A stretch of DNA of 64,000 nucleotides from a virus (Duplodnaviria > Heunggongvirae > Uroviricota > Caudoviricetes), in IMG/VR virus record IMGVR_UViG_2778261087_000003; one strand, given 5' to 3'. Shown here piece after piece: positions 13,044-58,230 of the stretch. Both the position numbers and the translations under genes were made by a program. Under the pieces are notes generated by a model, which saw only the letters and a program-made list of their open reading frames with translations, ran no database searches and had not been told where the DNA came from. Positions within the stretch are counted from its first letter, which is position 1. Each line of letters begins with the position of its first letter.

Positions 13044-13244
13044 TTATCTGCTGCCCGGCATTCTCTGTTTAAGCACAACCATTTCCTGACGGCATAACAC
13101 AGCAATAGCAGTCCTGGCTCCAATTTGCTTACCAACCAGGTATTGCTTTACCTCGCGGCGACTCACGCCATCAAGAAGCATCTTTAACGCTTCACGGGAC
13201 AATTTGTTGTATTTGCGTGCCATTAATCTACTCCGCAGAACCAT
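13044..13244 (-). CDS. PdcA-like small basic protein
   Basis: 66-aa ORF downstream of doc, overlapping its 3' end in another frame. Confidence 0.35.
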
Positions 13245-13608
13245 ACAATCTACGTAACGTGTCGGCGACAGAAGATACAGATATCTCGCCAGTCGCAGCG
13301 CCTACAGTAAGGTCTGCCAGTTCAGGTGAATCAAATACCTGCACCCCGTTACGGCGTAGAAATAGCAGCGCGCTGTTTAGCGCGGTACGCTTATTGGCAT
13401 CATTGAATATATGCCCTCTCGCTGTAGCCACCAGGTAGGTGGCGGAGACTTCGAAAAGGTCGGTGATCTCTTCGTAGGCAACTCTGGCCTGAACTCTCCC
13501 GATAATGGCCTCTGCCCTGCCCGGATCTGACATGCCAGGCAGGCCGCCGTAGCGGCTTATATTCGCATCATGAAGCGCAATAAGTTCTTCCGGTGATATA
13601 TGCCTCAT
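13228..13608 (-). CDS. doc: Doc toxin (Fic-fold kinase) of the phd-doc addiction module
   Basis: 126 aa; Fic-type motif HIFNDANKR; start overlaps the phd stop by 1 nt. Confidence 0.95.
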
Positions 13609-13829
13609 TATCGGTTAACCAGTTCCTTGTTGGTGGAGTCCAGGGTGTCAAACAGGGATGCAAATTCAGCATCCAGCGCCGCTTTTTTGTAGGCTTCGAA
13701 AGTAGCCTTGCTGACAATTACTGCTGGCTCACGGCCTCTGCGGGTGATTTCAACCTCTTCCCCGGCTTCAACATTGTTGAGCACTTCAGAAAGGTTGCCA
13801 CGCGCGGTACGGAAGTTAATGGATTGCAT
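13608..13829 (-). CDS. phd: Phd antitoxin
   Basis: 73 aa from [17 protein letters not shown] (ORF track begins two codons earlier); immediately upstream of doc. Confidence 0.9.
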
Positions 13830-53765: not shown

Positions 53766-54581
53766 ATGAGCAAAAACTTTTTTCAATCCGGGGCATTTTT
53801 GGGGAATGGACTGTCCCGTTTCGCTTTGAACTCTGATCCTGTGCAGCTGATGGAGTCTGCCCGAGCAAGCGCTGAACCGCCAACAGATCCGGTTATTAAT
53901 AATAATCCGGAACCGGCGGCACAGACTAACGATAACGTTCCATCTGCCCCGGCTCCTGAGCAAATCCTGGAAGGGAAAGACGGTAAAGAATGGACCGTCG
54001 AACAGGCGCACCAGATGATTCTGGAAGCTGCAAATCGAAGTGCTATGCAGAATGCGTTGAGTGATGCGGCCGACGCCGTTTTCGCCTGGGCTGATAGCGG
54101 TGATCTGACTTTCGACTCCCTTGATGGTTTCGTTCAGGCTATCGCTGGTATCTCTGATGACGACGACTCCGAAGTTACAGAAGAACAGGACGATGCCTAT
54201 AACGAAGCATGGGCAAATGTTGCTGACTTCCTCGCAGCATGCGGTGTAGATGATGACCTGATCGAAGCACTGGCTGACGATGAAGACGACGACGCAGCTG
54301 CTGATGTTGGTGCCTCTATCGCTGGTTTAGATAGCGACGACCGCGACGAACTGGAAGCGGCGTTTGTTGTTGCTGGCACTTCTGATGAAATGCTGACTGA
54401 AGCATTTAAGAAGGTTGTTCGTAATGGTGAGATCAAACTCATCCGTAAACGCCTGCGTAAAAAACGTCTGACTGCGGCTCAAAAATCGGCGCTGAAAAAA
54501 GCGCGTCGAAAAGCCCAGACCGGCGCGGCAAAACTTGCCCGCAAAAAGTCAATGAAACTGCGCCGTAAGCGCCTTGGCTAA
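53766..54581 (+). CDS. hypothetical protein with extremely acidic core and Lys/Arg-rich C-terminal tail
   Basis: 271 aa; Asp/Glu-rich stretch (DDDDSEVTEEQDD...ADDEDDDAAAD) and a basic C-terminus (RKRLRKKRL...RKKSMKLRRKRLG). Confidence 0.5.
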   Translation: MSKNFFQSGAFLGNGLSRFALNSDPVQLMESARASAEPPTDPVINNNPEPAAQTNDNVPSAPAPEQILEGKDGKEWTVEQAHQMILEAANRSAMQNALSDAADAVFAWADSGDLTFDSLDGFVQAIAGISDDDDSEVTEEQDDAYNEAWANVADFLAACGVDDDLIEALADDEDDDAAADVGASIAGLDSDDRDELEAAFVVAGTSDEMLTEAFKKVVRNGEIKLIRKRLRKKRLTAAQKSALKKARRKAQTGAAKLARKKSMKLRRKRLG

Positions 54582-54616
54582 AGGAGGAGGCCGGAGAACT
54601 CCGGCCTTTAACTTGA

Positions 54617-55198
54617 ATGGCACCTATACCTTATGGGGTTTACAGCCAGGCTGACGGTGTATCGCCATTTCTGAAAGTTACTTTAACGAACTCTCAGTAC
54701 CAGGTTACCGGATATATCAGCCAGGGGGCAGCAATGAACATGGCCCAGAATTGGGAAGCGCCGTTTACCGGTATGTCCATGGGGTCTGTTGCTGGTGCTT
54801 TCAGTGGTTTTGCGCAGGTTGGTACTGAAACAACGTCGGTGGCCCGTTGGAACAGCTTAATGGTTTGGGAGGGGGGAACACCGCCGACTTTCACGCTGCC
54901 AGTAACTTTCATCGCTTTGTTTGACCCATTCACGGAGGTTTCAGGAGCTATCGCCGCATTGTCAGCGATGATTAGCCCGGAACTTAAAGATGCCAGCATT
55001 GGTGGTCGAATCCCGGAGCGTGTGACGCTAAACATTGGTCGCCGGATCAACATCATTGATGTCGCTATCCAGGACATAAGTTTCGATCTCGATGCGCCCA
55101 GGGACAGCAATGGGCATTTCCTGAAAAACACCGTCAACCTCCAGTTGACCGGTTCTTCGATATATAACAGCTCCGATATTGTTCGGGCGTTCCAGTAA
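54617..55198 (+). CDS. hypothetical structural protein (tail region)
   Basis: 193-aa ORF in the tail gene cluster. Confidence 0.45.
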   Translation: MAPIPYGVYSQADGVSPFLKVTLTNSQYQVTGYISQGAAMNMAQNWEAPFTGMSMGSVAGAFSGFAQVGTETTSVARWNSLMVWEGGTPPTFTLPVTFIALFDPFTEVSGAIAALSAMISPELKDASIGGRIPERVTLNIGRRINIIDVAIQDISFDLDAPRDSNGHFLKNTVNLQLTGSSIYNSSDIVRAFQ

Positions 55199-55209
55199 AA
55201 GGATTTTAT

Positions 55210-55719
55210 ATGGGGCACAATAACACTAAGGGAAACCGTAAATTTATTAAGGGCCGCTATACTGCCAACGCGGCCAAAGGCGAACGACTGGTATCTTCTG
55301 AATTCCAGCTCACTTTTGCAGGCCATGAAGATATCAGCGTACTGGTTCGCACGTCGCAAATTCCTGAAATGACCCGCGAGGATGTGGAGGACTATGGTCC
55401 GAATGGTGTGAAGTTCAACCAGCACGGTCCAATTCGAAACTCTGGGGAAATCCAGGTCCAGTGCGTGGAGACTATCGAAGGCGATATTCTTCAGTTCATT
55501 AAAGATCGCATTGCGGCGAAGGACTATGTTGATATCACGATGGCTGCGACCCCTGAATCCAAATCTTCCGGGGTTAACGCTGTGACAAAAGCTGCTACAA
55601 CAATTGAAATGTTGGACTGCAAAATCTACAGTGATGCAATCGACTTTAGTACCGAAGATGTGACTGCCGCTGTGCGCCCGTCACTTCGTATCGTCTACAA
55701 CTGGATTGAGTGGGATTAA
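55210..55719 (+). CDS. hypothetical structural protein (possibly tail tube-like)
   Basis: 169-aa ORF, last gene before a terminator. Confidence 0.45.
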   Translation: MGHNNTKGNRKFIKGRYTANAAKGERLVSSEFQLTFAGHEDISVLVRTSQIPEMTREDVEDYGPNGVKFNQHGPIRNSGEIQVQCVETIEGDILQFIKDRIAAKDYVDITMAATPESKSSGVNAVTKAATTIEMLDCKIYSDAIDFSTEDVTAAVRPSLRIVYNWIEWD

Positions 55720-55738
55720 GAGTCATCCCTTGTATTTT

Positions 55739-55763
55739 AAAGCTCCTTCGGGAGCTTTTTTAT
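55739..55763. terminator. rho-independent terminator
   Basis: agctcc-ttcg-ggagct hairpin followed by TTTTTTATTT. Confidence 0.65.
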
Positions 55764-55835
55764 TTGGAGAGGAAAGGGTGCATTGAGGATACCTGACACA
55801 CGAAGAGTGGCGAGGATCTCTCCCCGCTAGGTCTC

Positions 55836-55991
55836 TTACCTTTCAGATTCGTAGGCTGTGAAGACAGTGACCTCCGTCTGGCCGGTTCGGATTCGTACCT
55901 CGCAGAGGTCTTTCCTCGTTACCAGTGCCGTCACAATGACGGTTAAACAGATGACGATCAGAGCGATTAACATCGCTTTTTGCTGCTTCAT
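55836..55991 (-). CDS. Hok/Gef-family type I toxin
   Basis: 51-aa ORF MKQQKAMLIALIVICLTVIVTALVTRKDLCEVRIRTGQTEVTVFTAYESER, closely resembling Hok (TM helix, conserved RKxLCE and AYES motifs); below the ORF-track size cut-off. Confidence 0.75.
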   Translation of the reverse strand: MKQQKAMLIALIVICLTVIVTALVTRKDLCEVRIRTGQTEVTVFTAYESER

Positions 55992-56172
55992 AGCCTGCTT
56001 CTCCTTGACCTTTTGGTCGGTAAGAGGCTAATCTACGTATGCTAAGCATAGATATGGCCTCAGATTAATGTTAAGCGTCTTGCAGGACGCGTAATGTTAT
56101 CTGGGGCTTTCTTCTATCTGCTTTTCGGGTAATGCCTGAAGCAGATAGCCTCAAGCACCCGCAACGATTGTA

Positions 56173-56418
56173 TCAATGTCTGGCTTTTTTTCTATAGAAA
56201 TCACCTGGAAGGGTGAATATCCACATCAGAAGAAATGTTGCAGCAAACATGATCCCTAATGGCCAGACCGCGCCAAAGAAAATCCATACTAAGATCTCCT
56301 CTGCTCGTTCTTTGCGGTCGATATCGACAAGCATTTTTCGGCTGATCATGTATACACAGAAGCCAATACAAACATATCCTGCAAAAGCGATCGCTAACTG
56401 TAAAAAATCAGATTGCAT
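56173..56418 (-). CDS. small membrane protein
   Basis: ORF track 56173..56499; GAGGT RBS precedes Met28 (MQSDFLQ...); two hydrophobic helices. Confidence 0.4.
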   Translation of the reverse strand: MQSDFLQLAIAFAGYVCIGFCVYMISRKMLVDIDRKERAEEILVWIFFGAVWPLGIMFAATFLLMWIFTLPGDFYRKKARH

Positions 56419-56448
56419 CTCCGACCTCAAACTGAAAACGCCAGGTGA

Positions 56449-56465
56449 CTCCAGATTAGAGCAAT
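56449..56465. promoter_or_regulatory. C1 operator-like sequence
   Basis: Minus-strand reading ATTGCTCTAATCTGGAG (11/17 to consensus) at the 3' end of repL. Confidence 0.3.
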
Positions 56466-56468
56466 CTA

Positions 56469-57314
56469 TCACCCTCTGAATCCTGCCGATATACCCCATT
56501 GTTCGTTATCTTTATTTTTGGCTAAAACCGCATTAAGAGCTTCGTTTACCGTCATGCAATGCGGCAGATTATCGAAGTTTGATACCCCGCCAATATCAGG
56601 AGAACGCTTGTTCTTCAGGTAAGCATATTTCCGCGCTGCCGCCTCTACTTTCTGCTTGAACTCATGTTTTTGAGCGCGTTTTTTGGATAACCGCAGATTG
56701 TCAGCCTTTGCTTTTGCCTCAGCGATCCAGGAAGTCAAATTTTTGAGCCTGGTCGTTCCGGCACCGCCGGAAACTGATCTTTCTGTTTTTTTAACTTGTG
56801 ACTTCTTATTCTTTATTGCCACGTCATCCTGACAGGGGGAGGGGGTATCATTTTGACATGGGGGTGTGGATAAAAAATTAAATAAAGCCAATGTCTTAGC
56901 GAGAACAGCTTTAACCTTGGTTGCCGCTGAAGAGATCTTTAATTTGCTTTCAATCAGCGCATTTTTGGCTTGTTGTGCGAAGGCCAAAAATGATGGTGTA
57001 AACCGGTACAGGTTAGCGCGACGTTCACGGTGATCGCCGATAACAATCTCTACAGACAGAATTCCTTTGTTTACAGCTTCACGGAATGCACGAACGACGG
57101 TTGATTGGCTATAACCAGTTTCTGCCGCGATCAGGCGGTGAGGCTTGTGAATGAAGTATTCACTGGTTGTTGCCGCGAGATTTGCACATTGCGACAGGAT
57201 ATGCCCGGCGCTACGGGATAGACCGGAGTGTGTTACAAAGCAGGCCAATTCATAGCCAGAAAAAGTAAAATCGCTCATCGTTATACAGCTCAGGAAAGTG
57301 ACTTTAGCCAGCAT
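56469..57314 (-). CDS. repL: RepL lytic replication initiator
   Basis: 281-aa ORF immediately downstream of kilA in a C1-operator-controlled operon, as P1 repL; N-terminal HTH-like region. Confidence 0.65.
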   Translation of the reverse strand: MLAKVTFLSCITMSDFTFSGYELACFVTHSGLSRSAGHILSQCANLAATTSEYFIHKPHRLIAAETGYSQSTVVRAFREAVNKGILSVEIVIGDHRERRANLYRFTPSFLAFAQQAKNALIESKLKISSAATKVKAVLAKTLALFNFLSTPPCQNDTPSPCQDDVAIKNKKSQVKKTERSVSGGAGTTRLKNLTSWIAEAKAKADNLRLSKKRAQKHEFKQKVEAAARKYAYLKNKRSPDIGGVSNFDNLPHCMTVNEALNAVLAKNKDNEQWGISAGFRG

Positions 57315-57343
57315 TACAATGCTGGTGGTTCTTACTACGTCTG

Positions 57344-58144
57344 TTAGCGCGTTGCCGCGACAGGTACCAGCACACCAGCATCAAGCAATCGCTTCATCAG
57401 CCACTGCTGACCTTTGCCGGTTATACGAGTCGTGAAAGAAATCCTGCTTCCATTGCTTGTATCGATCACGGTTTCTTTAAGGGTGAAATACCCACGGGAT
57501 ATGTATTCTTGTTTGGGGACGTTCCTGCGTTCACCGGTTGCGATCAGAATTCCGTTATCACGCAACCAGGTGAAGAGATAGTTTTGGCCCAGGCCGAGCA
57601 CTTTGGCATAGTTGCCGATTAGAACCCCGCTGGCGGTAGCAACGCGTTCGGCGAATTCGACTTTAGGTGCATCCATCAGCATTTTTTGCTCCAGCCGTTG
57701 CTTTTGCTCTGCAAGGTCAGCAGCCAAACGGAGAGCTTCTGGGAGGCTCTTCGGAATAGCAGGTTGTAATCTTCCCGCTCGATAGTCGATAAATGTCTGG
57801 TTTACCTTCAGCCGAAACGCGGGAGAAATCCAACCAGCGTACTCCACTGCGAGCAATTCATGGGCAAAAGTGCCGCCGCCACGGCCTTCGAACGAAACTA
57901 TGCAATTCTGCATAGTTTCTTTTTCAAGCTCTTCGATGAGCTGTTTGGCTGACAGCGTTCTTAGCCATTGAGCTGGCGCTTTATGGGCACCGAGTCCGCT
58001 CGCTCTGTGTAGAGCATTAAGGTTGTAACGGCCAGCGCGGTCGGTCGTAATTTCAACACCACAAATAACAGGCAGAGTGGTTGAAGGATCGACATTTTGA
58101 TGAAGGTTTGATATATTCATATCCGCATTGAATGTTTGTTGCAT
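57344..58144 (-). CDS. kilA: KilA (KilA-N domain plus antirepressor-type C-terminal domain)
   Basis: 266 aa; C-terminal ~110 aa (LPEALRLAADLAEQK...TGKGQQWL) is shared with the Ant ORF upstream. Confidence 0.8.
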   Translation of the reverse strand: MQQTFNADMNISNLHQNVDPSTTLPVICGVEITTDRAGRYNLNALHRASGLGAHKAPAQWLRTLSAKQLIEELEKETMQNCIVSFEGRGGGTFAHELLAVEYAGWISPAFRLKVNQTFIDYRAGRLQPAIPKSLPEALRLAADLAEQKQRLEQKMLMDAPKVEFAERVATASGVLIGNYAKVLGLGQNYLFTWLRDNGILIATGERRNVPKQEYISRGYFTLKETVIDTSNGSRISFTTRITGKGQQWLMKRLLDAGVLVPVAATR

Positions 58145-58213: not shown

Positions 58214-58230
58214 AAATTTATTAGAGCAAA
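58214..58230. promoter_or_regulatory. C1 operator controlling the kilA-repL operon
   Basis: Minus-strand reading TTTGCTCTAATAAATTT. Confidence 0.65.

What the first reader, a model, noticed from the sequence alone, without database searches (positions are those of the whole stretch)
55764..56170. Hok-like type I toxin gene in a convergent intergenic gap, missed by the ORF track
A 51-codon minus-strand ORF (55836-55991) encodes MKQQKAMLIALIVICLTVIVTALVTRKDLCEVRIRTGQTEVTVFTAYESER, which closely resembles Hok/Gef toxins. It lies between a tail-gene terminator and the repL-side small membrane gene, where P1 is expected to carry rlf-type genes. A hok/sok-type locus would add a second post-segregational killing system to phd-doc. 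The upstream ~180 bp (55992-56170) should then encode the mok leader and the antisense Sok RNA.
Basis: partly seen in the sequence, partly recalled or inferred. Interest (0 to 1): 0.6.

Follow-up and report, generated by a model that had tools for sequence, protein, structure and literature searches.

The report
Hok/Sok toxin-antitoxin on P1-like prophage
The small gene is a real, intact copy of the well-known hok/mok/sok RNA-controlled toxin-antitoxin cassette, sitting where reference phage P1 carries rlfA-rlfB-pmgF; it is correctly spotted but ordinary, because the identical cassette is already annotated (as hokD) in hundreds of P1-like plasmids.

Summary
Observation confirmed. The 51-codon minus-strand ORF 55836-55991 exists and translates as stated. 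It matches Pfam HOK_GEF over the full profile (78.7 bits, cutoff 22). Its leader matches Rfam RF01794 (114.9 bits, cutoff 59). All RNA elements of a hok/mok/sok locus are present and intact: hok promoter, tac, ucb, mok, dcb, hok, terminal hairpin, fbi, and a plus-strand Sok promoter and RNA (~56041-56111). The 385-nt transcript closes 5' on 3' (z = -8). All 26 homologs from seven genera do the same, with compensatory changes. The window is a P1-like phage-plasmid. A 693-bp cassette (55762-56454: hok/sok plus an 81-aa membrane ORF) replaces 1,826 bp of P1 (rlfA, rlfB, pmgF), a known variable region. phd-doc is also present (13231-13829). Not novel: the Hok protein is identical to RefSeq WP_001313475.1 (HokD). 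The layout recurs in 262 PLSDB plasmids, and homologs occur in 4,739 of 5,426 complete E. coli genomes. The closest characterised relative, hokW-sokW (87.8% nt identity), is a proven type I TA that aids phage release on induction. Small differences here: mok is in the +1 frame and the Sok promoter spacer is 18 nt. Expression, toxicity and biological role remain untested.

The parts
56167..56194 (-). Predicted hok/mok promoter: -35 TAGAAA (56189-56194), 16-nt spacer, TG-extended -10 TACAAT (56167-56172). The TG is part of the TGA stop codon of the upstream 81-aa ORF.
   Evidence: Consensus scan, 9/12 matches with TG; sequence verified; the -10 aligns with TAGAAT in 933W at the same distance from the conserved +1. 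The scan is not significant on its own (2 sites found, 1.4 expected).
55776..56160 (-). Full-length hok/mok mRNA (385 nt), from +1 G at 56160 to the end of fbi at 55776. Transcription may continue to the bidirectional terminator at 55739-55758.
   Evidence: Homology to hokW/sokW of 933W and other loci begins and ends exactly here; the Rfam model starts at 56160; MFE -149 kcal/mol, z = -8.04.
56149..56160 (-). tac (translational activator element), GGGUGCUUGAGG, at the 5' end of the mRNA.
   Evidence: Pairs with fbi in the MFE; does so in all 26 homologs; covariation at position 4, U-A to C-G in 9 sequences. Element definitions from PMC9841398.
56127..56143 (-). Local partner of tac, forming the 5' hairpin seen when fbi is absent (corresponds to the metastable hairpin of nascent hok mRNA).
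   Evidence: Folds of the 3'-trimmed RNA; concept from PMC9841398.
56103..56109 (-). ucb / anti-SD (AAGCCCC), which sequesters the mok Shine-Dalgarno in the full-length RNA.
   Evidence: MFE and base-pair probabilities: mok SD P(unpaired) about 0 for 3 of 4 nt; RNAalifold helix at columns 56-66/95-107 with three covarying pairs.
55843..56049 (-). mok reading frame: 68 codons, SD GAGG at 56058-56061, ATG at 56047-56049. It overlaps all of hok in the +1 frame.
   Evidence: the ORF listing; the aligned ATG is conserved in 24 of 26 loci, in frame with hok in 17 and +1 here because of one extra T in GGTCAAGG; matches phrog_37205.
56020..56028 (-). dcb-type box GCCUCUUAC. It pairs with GUAAGAG at the hok stop codon (55833-55839) in the full-length RNA and can pair with the mok SD after trimming.
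   Evidence: Invariant long-range helix at columns 141-147/328-336 in RNAalifold; tac/ucb-enforced fold. No covariation, so it is consistent with the model but not proven.
55836..55991 (-). hok toxin gene (51 aa), SD AAGGAG at 56001-56006.
   Evidence: phrog_251, 110.7 bits; identical to WP_001313475.1 HokD.
55810..55827 (-). Terminal 3' hairpin of the processed (truncated) mRNA, GCGGGGAGAGAUCCUCGC. It is also the IS421/IS186 target in related plasmids.
   Evidence: Folds; conserved helix at columns 342-349/361-368; role of the last stem-loop per PMC9841398; IS insertion with 11-bp duplication of 55814-55824 in L005.
55776..55788 (-). fbi (fold-back inhibitory element), CCUCAAUGCACCC, complementary to tac.
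   Evidence: tac/fbi duplex -20.7 kcal/mol.
56005..56034 (+). Predicted Sok promoter: -35 TTGACC (56005-56010), 18-nt spacer, -10 TAATCT (56029-56034). The -35 overlaps the hok SD on the other strand.
   Evidence: Read from the sequence; homologous to TTGCCT-17-TAACCT in 933W and TTGCGC-17-TATCCT in the R1-type locus. The generic promoter scan did not call it.
56041..56111 (+). Predicted Sok antisense RNA (~71 nt): 15-nt single-stranded 5' tail complementary to the mok start region, a long hairpin, and a U-rich tail (UUUCUUCU continues to ~56117).
   Evidence: Coordinates transferred from the sokW misc_RNA of 933W; fold -29.1 kcal/mol, z = -4.8; same shape in all 26 loci. Expression not shown.
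55739..55758 (.). Bidirectional hairpin terminator shared by bplB (+) and, probably, hok (-).
   Evidence: Terminator scan; fold. The U-tract on the minus strand is weak (UUUAAAAU).
56173..56418 (-). 81-aa two-TM membrane ORF of unknown function (context). It is part of the same 693-bp replacement cassette, and the hok promoter overlaps its 3' end.
   Evidence: Identical to WP_001426344.1; phrog_3772, 181 bits, unknown function; no significant Pfam, NCBIfam or PADLOC hit.
55762..56454 (.). Replacement cassette relative to reference P1. It substitutes P1 51586-53411 (distal part of the Orlf operator, rlfA, rlfB, pmgF).
   Evidence: blastn breakpoints; P1 annotation; known variable region 5 of P1-like phage-plasmids (PMC9603915).

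Best explanation
This is an intact hok/mok/sok type I toxin-antitoxin module carried by a P1-like plasmid prophage, and it should work as in plasmid R1. A weak constitutive promoter (56167-56194) makes a stable 385-nt mRNA. Its 5' end (tac) pairs with its 3' end (fbi), and its mok ribosome-binding site is hidden by ucb, so the full-length RNA is neither translated nor bound by Sok. Slow 3' trimming back to the terminal hairpin (55810-55827) removes fbi. tac can then pair with ucb, exposing the mok start region. While the element is present, the short-lived Sok RNA (~56041-56111, plus strand) pairs with that region, blocks mok and therefore hok translation, and marks the duplex for RNase III. 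If Sok supply stops, mok is translated, hok translation follows, and the 51-aa Hok peptide depolarises the inner membrane. Sok supply would stop after loss of the plasmid prophage, and possibly on induction. The most likely main role is post-segregational killing, which would back up phd-doc. SHOWN here: gene, family membership, all sequence elements, predicted folds and their evolutionary conservation. INFERRED: transcription, RNA half-lives, processing, toxicity, and the stabilisation phenotype.
For: Pfam HOK_GEF 78.7 bits, full profile; phrog_251 110.7 bits; Rfam RF01794 114.9 bits against GA 59 over the leader. Protein identical to RefSeq HokD, 92% identical to HokW of 933W (4 differences in 51, sequences), 42% to R1-type Hok. 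Full-length fold has 5'-3' closure, z = -8.04. All 26 homologs from Escherichia, Shigella, Kluyvera, Citrobacter, Photorhabdus, Pantoea and an unclassified enterobacterium close their ends with 11-12 pairs. Compensatory changes occur in tac/fbi and in the ucb/mok-SD hairpin. The mok SD is sequestered in the full-length RNA. The mok ATG is conserved in 24 of 26 loci. The Sok promoter and the tail-hairpin-U-tract shape are conserved in all loci, and the R1-type locus has the same architecture. hokW-sokW, 87.8% identical over the module, was shown experimentally to be a type I TA with membrane-located toxin (PMC8621323). Translation of mok, not the Mok product, is what matters (PMC9841398), so the +1 frame is compatible with function. 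The module is 98-100% conserved in 262 P1-like plasmids. phd-doc is co-resident.
Against: There are no expression or phenotype data for this copy. The Sok promoter has a suboptimal 18-nt spacer and a weak -10 (TAATCT), and the generic scan did not call it. The hok promoter call is not significant on its own. mok is in the +1 frame, unlike 17 of 26 relatives. Thermodynamic folding of the trimmed RNA does not open the mok SD, although the same is true of the R1-type positive control. Related P1-like plasmids tolerate loss or disruption of the module (IS insertion, hok deletion), so it is dispensable. For the closest characterised relative the demonstrated role is not plasmid stabilisation. NCBIfam Hok HMMs score below their cutoffs.
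Confidence: 0.8

Rival explanations
1. Same molecular machine, but its main role is in the lytic cycle. On prophage induction Sok is lost, Hok is made and weakens the membrane early, which advances lysis and increases phage release, as shown for hokW-sokW in Stx2 phage Sp5. Here the wiring could be direct: the cassette lies at the distal end of the C1-repressed kilA-repL(-orf81) operon. Read-through transcripts would carry the Sok target and collide with Sok transcription. This reading is not exclusive with post-segregational killing.
For: hokW-sokW: mitomycin C removes sokW RNA, HokW appears about 1 h before the endolysin, and phage yield halves in the deletion mutant (PMC8621323). That locus is 87.8% identical to this one. 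An intact C1 operator-like site (TTTGCTCTAATAAATTT, 58214-58230) lies upstream of kilA. No convincing terminator lies between repL/orf81 and hok, only a 5-bp stem inside orf81. The hok promoter overlaps the orf81 stop codon.
Against: The element is a plasmid prophage, for which an addiction role has a direct rationale. P1 induction depends on C1 inactivation rather than LexA/RecA cleavage of a lambda-type CI, so the Sp5 result may not transfer. Read-through and Sok depletion are untested. 5'-extended transcripts would still contain tac and fbi and might stay closed.
Confidence: 0.3
2. The module acts mainly as an abortive-infection or exclusion system against other phages. Host transcription shut-off by an invading phage stops Sok synthesis and releases Hok.
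For: From my own knowledge, R1 hok/sok was reported to partly exclude T4 (Pecota and Wood 1996; not checked here). TA systems on prophages are often defensive, as discussed in PMC8621323.
Against: Neither Hok nor the 81-aa neighbour hits any PADLOC defence model. No defence genes lie adjacent. No data exist for this copy.
Confidence: 0.1
3. The locus is a selfish or decaying passenger with no phenotype, like most chromosomal hok loci of E. coli K-12. It was merely carried in with the cassette that replaced rlfA-rlfB-pmgF.
For: The region is a recombination hotspot (PMC9603915). Relatives carry an IS421/IS186 in the 3' UTR or have lost the hok CDS and the Sok -35. K-12 hokD retains only the 3' 58% of the module. 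This copy has a frame-shifted mok and an 18-nt Sok spacer.
Against: Every functional element is intact in this copy. The ORF has no lesions and gives a full-length Pfam match. Identity is 98-100% across hundreds of plasmids.
Confidence: 0.07
4. It is a chance small ORF in an intergenic gap.
For: None beyond its small size.
Against: E-values of 2.4e-22 (Pfam) and 6.3e-27 (Rfam); conservation across genera.
Confidence: 0.01

Closest known systems
hokW-mokW-sokW of Stx2 phages 933W / VT2-Sakai (Sp5)
   Same: 87.8% nucleotide identity over exactly the transcript (window 55776-56163); Hok 47/51 residues identical; same tac, fbi, ucb, mok ATG, Sok hairpin and promoter positions; phage-borne; experimentally a type I TA (PMC8621323).
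   Different: Here mok is in the +1 frame (68 aa), whereas mokW is in frame (70 aa), because of one extra T. The Sok promoter is TTGACC-18-TAATCT here and TTGCCT-17-TAACCT there. The sequence upstream of the -10 and all flanks differ. The host element is a plasmid prophage rather than an integrated lambdoid phage.
hokD (relF) of E. coli, the PGAP naming target
   Same: The window protein is identical to WP_001313475.1, which PGAP names HokD. Chromosomal and prophage copies are 87-91% identical in DNA and occur in 4,739 of 5,426 complete genomes.
   Different: The K-12-type hokD covers only the 3' 58% of the module (3' UTR, CDS and SD) and lacks the leader, mok and sok. The window copy is complete.
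hok/sok (parB) of plasmid R1 and F-like plasmids, the reference example
   Same: Same architecture in an R1-type locus: 391-nt RNA with 5'-3' closure, ucb/mok-SD hairpin, mok overlapping hok, and a Sok promoter inside the leader (TTGCGC-17-TATCCT). Mechanism as in PMC9841398.
   Different: Only 42% protein identity. DNA is too diverged for blastn. R1-type mok is in frame (71 aa). It is carried on conjugative plasmids rather than a phage-plasmid.
hokC/gef-mokC-sokC type chromosomal loci
   Same: About 74% DNA identity and 80-82% protein identity; same element order.
   Different: Shorter Sok-target hairpin (an 18-nt deletion in the alignment) and a different 3' UTR.
phd-doc of P1 (type II addiction module)
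   Same: Co-resident on the same element (13231-13829), with the same presumed purpose of killing or arresting cells that lose the prophage.
   Different: It has a protein antitoxin and a kinase/Fic-type toxin, with no sequence or mechanistic relation to hok/sok. It belongs to the conserved P1 core (PMC9603915), whereas hok/sok lies in a variable region.

Membership tests
hok/sok type I toxin-antitoxin (Hok/Gef, Pfam PF01848; leader RNA Rfam RF01794) | A ~50-aa hydrophobic toxin with the Hok/Gef domain | tested here: met
   PF01848 78.7 bits (cutoff 22), residues 6-47 on profile 1-42/42; phrog_251 110.7 bits.
hok/sok type I toxin-antitoxin | Conserved structured 5' leader of hok mRNA | tested here: met
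   RF01794 114.9 bits (GA 59), model 1-157/157, at 55986-56160 on the minus strand. The model is in hok sense, so it does not test the antisense RNA.
hok/sok type I toxin-antitoxin | Upstream overlapping mok frame with its own SD, to which hok translation is coupled | tested here: met
   ORF 55843-56049, SD GAGG 8 nt upstream; ATG conserved in 24 of 26 loci. The frame is +1 rather than in frame, which is acceptable because mok translation, not its product, is required (PMC9841398). Coupling itself was not tested.
hok/sok type I toxin-antitoxin | cis-encoded antisense Sok RNA with its promoter inside the leader, a single-stranded 5' tail complementary to the mok start region, a hairpin and a U-tail | tested here: met
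   In silico only: promoter TTGACC-18-TAATCT; RNA 56041-56111 fold z = -4.8; homologous to the annotated sokW; same shape in 26 loci. Expression is not testable with these tools.
hok/sok type I toxin-antitoxin | tac/fbi 5'-3' end pairing that closes the full-length mRNA | tested here: met
   12 pairs in the MFE, z = -8.04; 11-12 pairs in every one of 26 homologs; compensatory U-A to C-G in 9 sequences, plus G-C to A-U and G.U intermediates in the outer arm.
hok/sok type I toxin-antitoxin | mok SD sequestered by ucb (anti-SD) in the full-length RNA | tested here: met
   P(unpaired) about 0 for 3 of 4 SD nucleotides; helix with 3 covarying pairs.
hok/sok type I toxin-antitoxin | Refolding after 3' trimming (tac/ucb stem, mok SD released for translation and Sok binding) | tested here: inconclusive
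   The MFE of the trimmed RNA keeps the SD paired. The tac/ucb-enforced conformer is +2.7 kcal/mol, compared with +1.5 kcal/mol in the R1-type positive control, which also fails to switch in silico. This is a limit of the method, not evidence against.
hok/sok type I toxin-antitoxin | Metastable 5' hairpin preventing co-transcriptional translation | tested here: met
   tac pairs with 56127-56143 when fbi is absent. In silico only.
hok/sok type I toxin-antitoxin | Toxicity by membrane depolarisation; unstable Sok against stable hok mRNA; RNase III cleavage; post-segregational killing | not testable with these tools
   Shown for R1 hok/sok and hokW-sokW in the literature (PMC9841398, PMC8621323), not for this copy.
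NCBIfam Hok family HMMs (NF007279 subfamily; NF007290 HokA equivalog) | Score above the curated cutoff | tested here: not met
   49.5 bits against 73, and 38.1 bits against 89. PGAP nevertheless names the identical protein HokD, presumably by another rule. This does not affect Pfam membership.
P1-like phage-plasmid (Punavirus), variable region 5 (rlfA-rlfB-pmgF) | Flanked by bplB and repL-kilA with P1-level identity; content differs from reference P1 | tested here: met
   Flanks are 96.3% and 98.0% identical to P1, with breakpoints at 55761/55762 and 56454/56455; P1 annotation; region listed as highly variable (PMC9603915).

The most novel reading that the evidence does not exclude
The cassette's position is functional rather than incidental. 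It sits at the distal end of the C1-repressed kilA-repL-orf81 transcription unit, with Sok transcribed head-on against it, so Hok release would be hard-wired to prophage derepression. Read-through transcripts would titrate Sok and/or occlude its promoter. That would give a mechanistic basis for the unexplained Sok disappearance seen with hokW-sokW, and would make one module serve both as plasmid addiction in lysogeny and as a lysis accelerator in lytic growth.
Probability: 0.12. Interest if true: 0.45.

Novelty: already known. Interest (0 to 1): 0.14.

Why it matters
It matters little as a discovery. hok/sok is one of the best-studied toxin-antitoxin systems. This exact protein is in RefSeq as HokD, and the same cassette sits at the same place in hundreds of sequenced P1-like plasmids. 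It is useful for annotation. Public records annotate only the toxin ORF (sometimes under the wrong name), never mok, Sok or the RNA elements mapped here. It also shows that many natural P1-like phage-plasmids carry two unrelated killing modules (phd-doc and hok/sok). That is relevant to their persistence as carriers of resistance genes, and to using P1 derivatives as vectors. A modest open question is whether, on a phage-plasmid, the module serves plasmid maintenance, lysis timing, or both.

Tried and rejected
1. Unrestricted RNAduplex between 85-nt upstream and 95-nt downstream flanks, with shuffle z-scores, was too noisy to be informative. I replaced it with motif-anchored transcript extraction, per-sequence MFEs and RNAalifold.
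2. My first dinucleotide shuffler hung and the script timed out.
3. My first truncation, at 55815, cut inside the terminal hairpin. I redid it ending after the hairpin.
4. My first mok detector excluded in-frame ORFs and wrongly reported 'none' for most loci. I corrected it using the aligned ATG.
5. MAFFT misregisters the variable 3' UTR and the bulged fbi arm, so helices there (mok start region with 3' UTR) were assessed per sequence and not by column counts. I did not run the count of structure pairs or build a covariance model, because a 385-nt model would exceed the calibration limit.
6. A blastn 'distant' search did not reach R1-type hok/sok.
7. Literature searches found no paper describing hok/sok specifically in the P1 rlf region. 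One search failed on a term that was too short, and one read failed on a disallowed character.
8. Pfam, NCBIfam and PADLOC gave nothing for the 81-aa ORF or the Mok frame.
9. The weak Rfam hits (CRISPR-DR46, ceN48, sbrA, plus-strand 'sok' at 21 bits) are all far below their gathering scores, and I dismissed them.
Full report
OBSERVATION. It lies between the convergent bplB gene (55210-55719, plus strand) with its hairpin terminator (55739-55758) and a small membrane ORF next to repL (56469-57314, minus strand).

WHAT THE REPLICON IS AND WHAT WAS SWAPPED. The surrounding genes are those of a P1-like plasmid prophage: pmgG, bplB, repL and kilA. They are 99% identical to several Punavirus records. 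Against reference P1 (NC_005856), the flanks align at 96.3% (window 54001-55761) and 98.0% (56455-58040). Between them, window 55762-56454 (693 bp) replaces P1 51586-53411 (1,826 bp). That P1 segment holds the distal part of the C1 operator Orlf plus rlfA, rlfB and pmgF. It is one of eight 'highly variable regions' already described for P1-like phage-plasmids (PMC9603915). phd and doc are present elsewhere in the window (13231-13829).

FAMILY MEMBERSHIP.
- The protein matches Pfam HOK_GEF over the whole profile (78.7 bits against a cutoff of 22, E = 2.4e-22) and PHROG 251 'MokW-like host killing' (110.7 bits).
- It is identical to RefSeq WP_001313475.1, which PGAP names 'type I toxin-antitoxin system toxin HokD'.
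- It differs at 4 of 51 residues from HokW of phage 933W and is 42% identical to R1-type Hok.
- Two NCBIfam Hok HMMs hit below their cutoffs.
- The leader matches Rfam RF01794 end to end (114.9 bits, gathering score 59). That model starts at the tac sequence and ends at the hok AUG, so it is in hok sense. It supports the leader but not the antisense RNA.

ELEMENT MAP (all sequences verified).
- hok promoter: TAGAAA (56189-56194), 16-nt spacer, TG-extended TACAAT (56167-56172), with +1 at G 56160.
- tac: GGGUGCUUGAGG (56149-56160).
- ucb / anti-SD: AAGCCCC (56103-56109).
- mok: SD GAGG (56058-56061), ATG at 56047-56049, 68 codons ending at 55843.
- dcb-type box: GCCUCUUAC (56020-56028).
- hok: SD AAGGAG (56001-56006), CDS 55836-55991.
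- Terminal hairpin: GCGGGGAGAGAUCCUCGC (55810-55827).
- fbi: CCUCAAUGCACCC (55776-55788).
- Sok promoter (plus strand): TTGACC (56005-56010), 18-nt spacer, TAATCT (56029-56034).
- Sok RNA (plus strand): about 56041-56111, by transfer of the sokW annotation of 933W.
Homology to lambdoid hokW/sokW loci (87.8%) starts and stops exactly at the two ends of the transcript. The mobile unit is therefore the transcript itself. Sequence upstream of the -10 is specific to the P1-like context and lies inside the 3' end of the neighbouring 81-aa ORF. The TG of that ORF's TGA stop codon is the TG of the extended -10.

FOLDING.
- The 385-nt RNA folds to -149 kcal/mol (shuffles average -106, z = -8.04). tac pairs with fbi, and the mok SD is buried in a hairpin with ucb.
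- When the 33 nt after the terminal hairpin are removed, tac folds back on 56127-56143. This corresponds to the metastable 5' hairpin described for nascent hok mRNA (PMC9841398).
- Equilibrium folding does not open the mok SD in the trimmed RNA. It also fails to do so in an R1-type locus used as a positive control. The tac/ucb-enforced conformer lies only 2.7 kcal/mol (window) and 1.5 kcal/mol (R1-type) above the MFE. I score this step as inconclusive for methodological reasons.
- The predicted Sok RNA has a 15-nt single-stranded tail complementary to the mok start region, a long hairpin and a U-rich tail (-29.1 kcal/mol, z = -4.8).

COMPARATIVE SUPPORT. A scan of one genome per species returned 47 hok loci. 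I cut 26 non-redundant transcripts from the tac motif to the fbi motif and aligned them. They share 67-99% DNA identity and come from Escherichia, Shigella, Kluyvera, Citrobacter, Photorhabdus, Pantoea and an unclassified enterobacterium.
- Every one closes its 5' end on its 3' end with 11-12 pairs in its own MFE.
- The arms covary. GGGUGC/GCACCC becomes GGGCGC/GCGCCC in 9 sequences, and GAGG/CCUC becomes GAGA/UCUC or GAAG/CUUC, with G.U intermediates.
- RNAalifold also recovers the ucb/mok-SD hairpin with three covarying pairs, the terminal hairpin, and an invariant long-range helix between the dcb box and GUAAGAG at the hok stop codon.
- The mok ATG is conserved in 24 of 26 loci, and its start region pairs with the 3' UTR in 23 of 26 MFEs.
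- A -35/-10 pair and a tail-hairpin-U-tract Sok are present at the homologous place in all 26 loci.
- The R1-type locus has the same layout, with Sok promoter TTGCGC-17-TATCCT.

HOW IT MOST LIKELY WORKS. By homology with R1 hok/sok (mechanism summarised in PMC9841398), the steps are as follows.
1. The full-length RNA is a stable, closed and silent reservoir.
2. 3' exonucleolytic trimming removes fbi.
3. tac switches to ucb, and the mok start region becomes available.
4. Abundant but unstable Sok pairs there, blocks mok and hence hok, and triggers RNase III cleavage.
5. When Sok is no longer made, Hok is translated and depolarises the membrane.
Shown here are the sequence elements, their predicted pairings and their conservation. 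Transcription, half-lives, processing, toxicity and phenotype are inferred.

WHICH BIOLOGICAL ROLE. Three readings remain open.
- **Lysis aid on induction.** The closest characterised relative, hokW-sokW of Sp5, is a proven type I TA. Its Sok disappears on mitomycin C induction, its toxin appears about 1 h before the endolysin, and its deletion halves phage release (PMC8621323). In the window the cassette lies directly downstream of kilA-repL-orf81. An intact C1 operator-like site lies upstream of kilA (58214-58230), and no convincing terminator precedes hok. Read-through on derepression, running head-on against Sok transcription, is therefore plausible but untested.
- **Defence.** A role against other phages is possible but has no support here; PADLOC gives no hit.

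DIFFERENCES FROM THE CANONICAL LOCUS.
- mok is in the +1 frame (68 codons, stopping 7 nt before the hok stop), because of one extra T in GGTCAAGG. It is in frame in 17 of 26 relatives and in the R1-type locus.
- The same extra base makes the Sok -35 TTGACC (5/6 match to consensus) but lengthens the spacer to 18 nt.
- The region upstream of the hok -10 is provided by the neighbouring ORF.
None of these differences is expected to abolish function, because it is mok translation, not the Mok product, that is required.

NOVELTY. The finding is not novel.
- The 821-bp stretch 55700-56520 is present at 80% coverage or more in 262 PLSDB plasmids, mostly at 98-100% identity, with hokD annotated.
- The 397-bp module has homologs in 4,739 of 5,426 complete E. 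coli genomes, with a median of two copies each.
- hokW/mokW/sokW is annotated in the 933W record.
- What public records lack is annotation of mok, Sok and the RNA elements in the P1-like context. One record also misnames the toxin ORF 'MokW'.
- I found no paper discussing hok/sok as the occupant of the P1 rlf variable region, but that is a gap in commentary rather than in knowledge.

VERDICT. This is an intact, ordinary member of a thoroughly known family. Interest is low (0.14). The only mildly open question is whether, on a phage-plasmid, the module serves maintenance, lysis timing, or both.

Noticed in passing
window 55814-55824; L005 (NZ_CP034590.1) 1161-2500: In many related P1-like plasmids a 1,340-bp IS4-family IS421/IS186-type element is inserted in the terminal hairpin of the hok 3' UTR. 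It carries an 11-bp target duplication (GGGAGAGATCC in the window) and separates fbi from the rest of the mRNA. From memory, IS186/IS150 insertions just downstream of hok also inactivate chromosomal hok loci in K-12. The window copy is uninterrupted.
   Followed up: partly
window 55762-56028; L053 (NZ_CP104510.1) and L055 (phage RCS47): Another variant of the same gap has lost fbi, the hok CDS, the hok SD and the Sok -35. They are replaced by about 760 bp carrying a 198-aa ORF of unknown function, and identity resumes exactly at the Sok -10 (TAATCT). These elements keep the hok promoter, the leader and most of sok as an orphan remnant. RCS47 additionally carries an IS605-family transposase there.
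   Followed up: partly
window 56449-56465 (-): The right-hand swap breakpoint falls inside the C1 operator Orlf. The window keeps ATTGCTCTAAT (11 of 17 nt) followed by unrelated CTGGAG, whereas P1 has ATTGCTCTAATTATAAC. Whether C1 still binds is unknown.
   Followed up: no
window 58214-58230 (-): An intact C1 operator-like site, TTTGCTCTAATAAATTT (1 mismatch to the consensus as I recall it), lies upstream of kilA. This is consistent with the C1-controlled P53 kilA-repL operon of P1.
   Followed up: no
window 56173-56418 (-): An 81-aa ORF with two predicted transmembrane segments, identical to WP_001426344.1, belongs to PHROG 3772 (unknown function, 181 bits) and has no significant Pfam, NCBIfam or PADLOC hit. 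It travels with hok/sok in the cassette but persists in variants that lost hok. The longer 108-aa reading (ATG 56499) starts inside repL and is probably not the real start.
   Followed up: partly
window 55986-56160 (Rfam RF01794): The Rfam family called 'sok antitoxin' is modelled on the hok-sense strand. It begins with tac and ends with the hok AUG, so its hits mark the hok leader and give the wrong strand for the Sok RNA.
   Followed up: yes
L001 (MH422554.1) 2637-2792; L054 (NZ_CP128973.1) 508-609: Annotation slips in public records. The 51-aa Hok ORF is labelled 'MokW' in MH422554.1. PGAP calls only a 33-codon fragment of the R1-type hok in pMTY1886_IncFII, although the full 52-codon ORF is intact.
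   Followed up: partly
L015 (JQCU01000506.1, 275 bp) and L027 (NZ_JPLE01000323.1, 431 bp): Tiny contigs in assemblies labelled Acinetobacter idrijaensis and Xanthomonas pisi carry this hok locus (99.5% and 88% identity to the window). They most likely reflect enterobacterial or P1-like contamination of those assemblies.
   Followed up: no
L007 (Kluyvera cryocrescens NBRC 102467, 16.7-kb contig): A Kluyvera contig carries the module at 98% identity, including the +1-frame mok. This suggests the same P1-like cassette occurs outside Escherichia and Salmonella.
   Followed up: no
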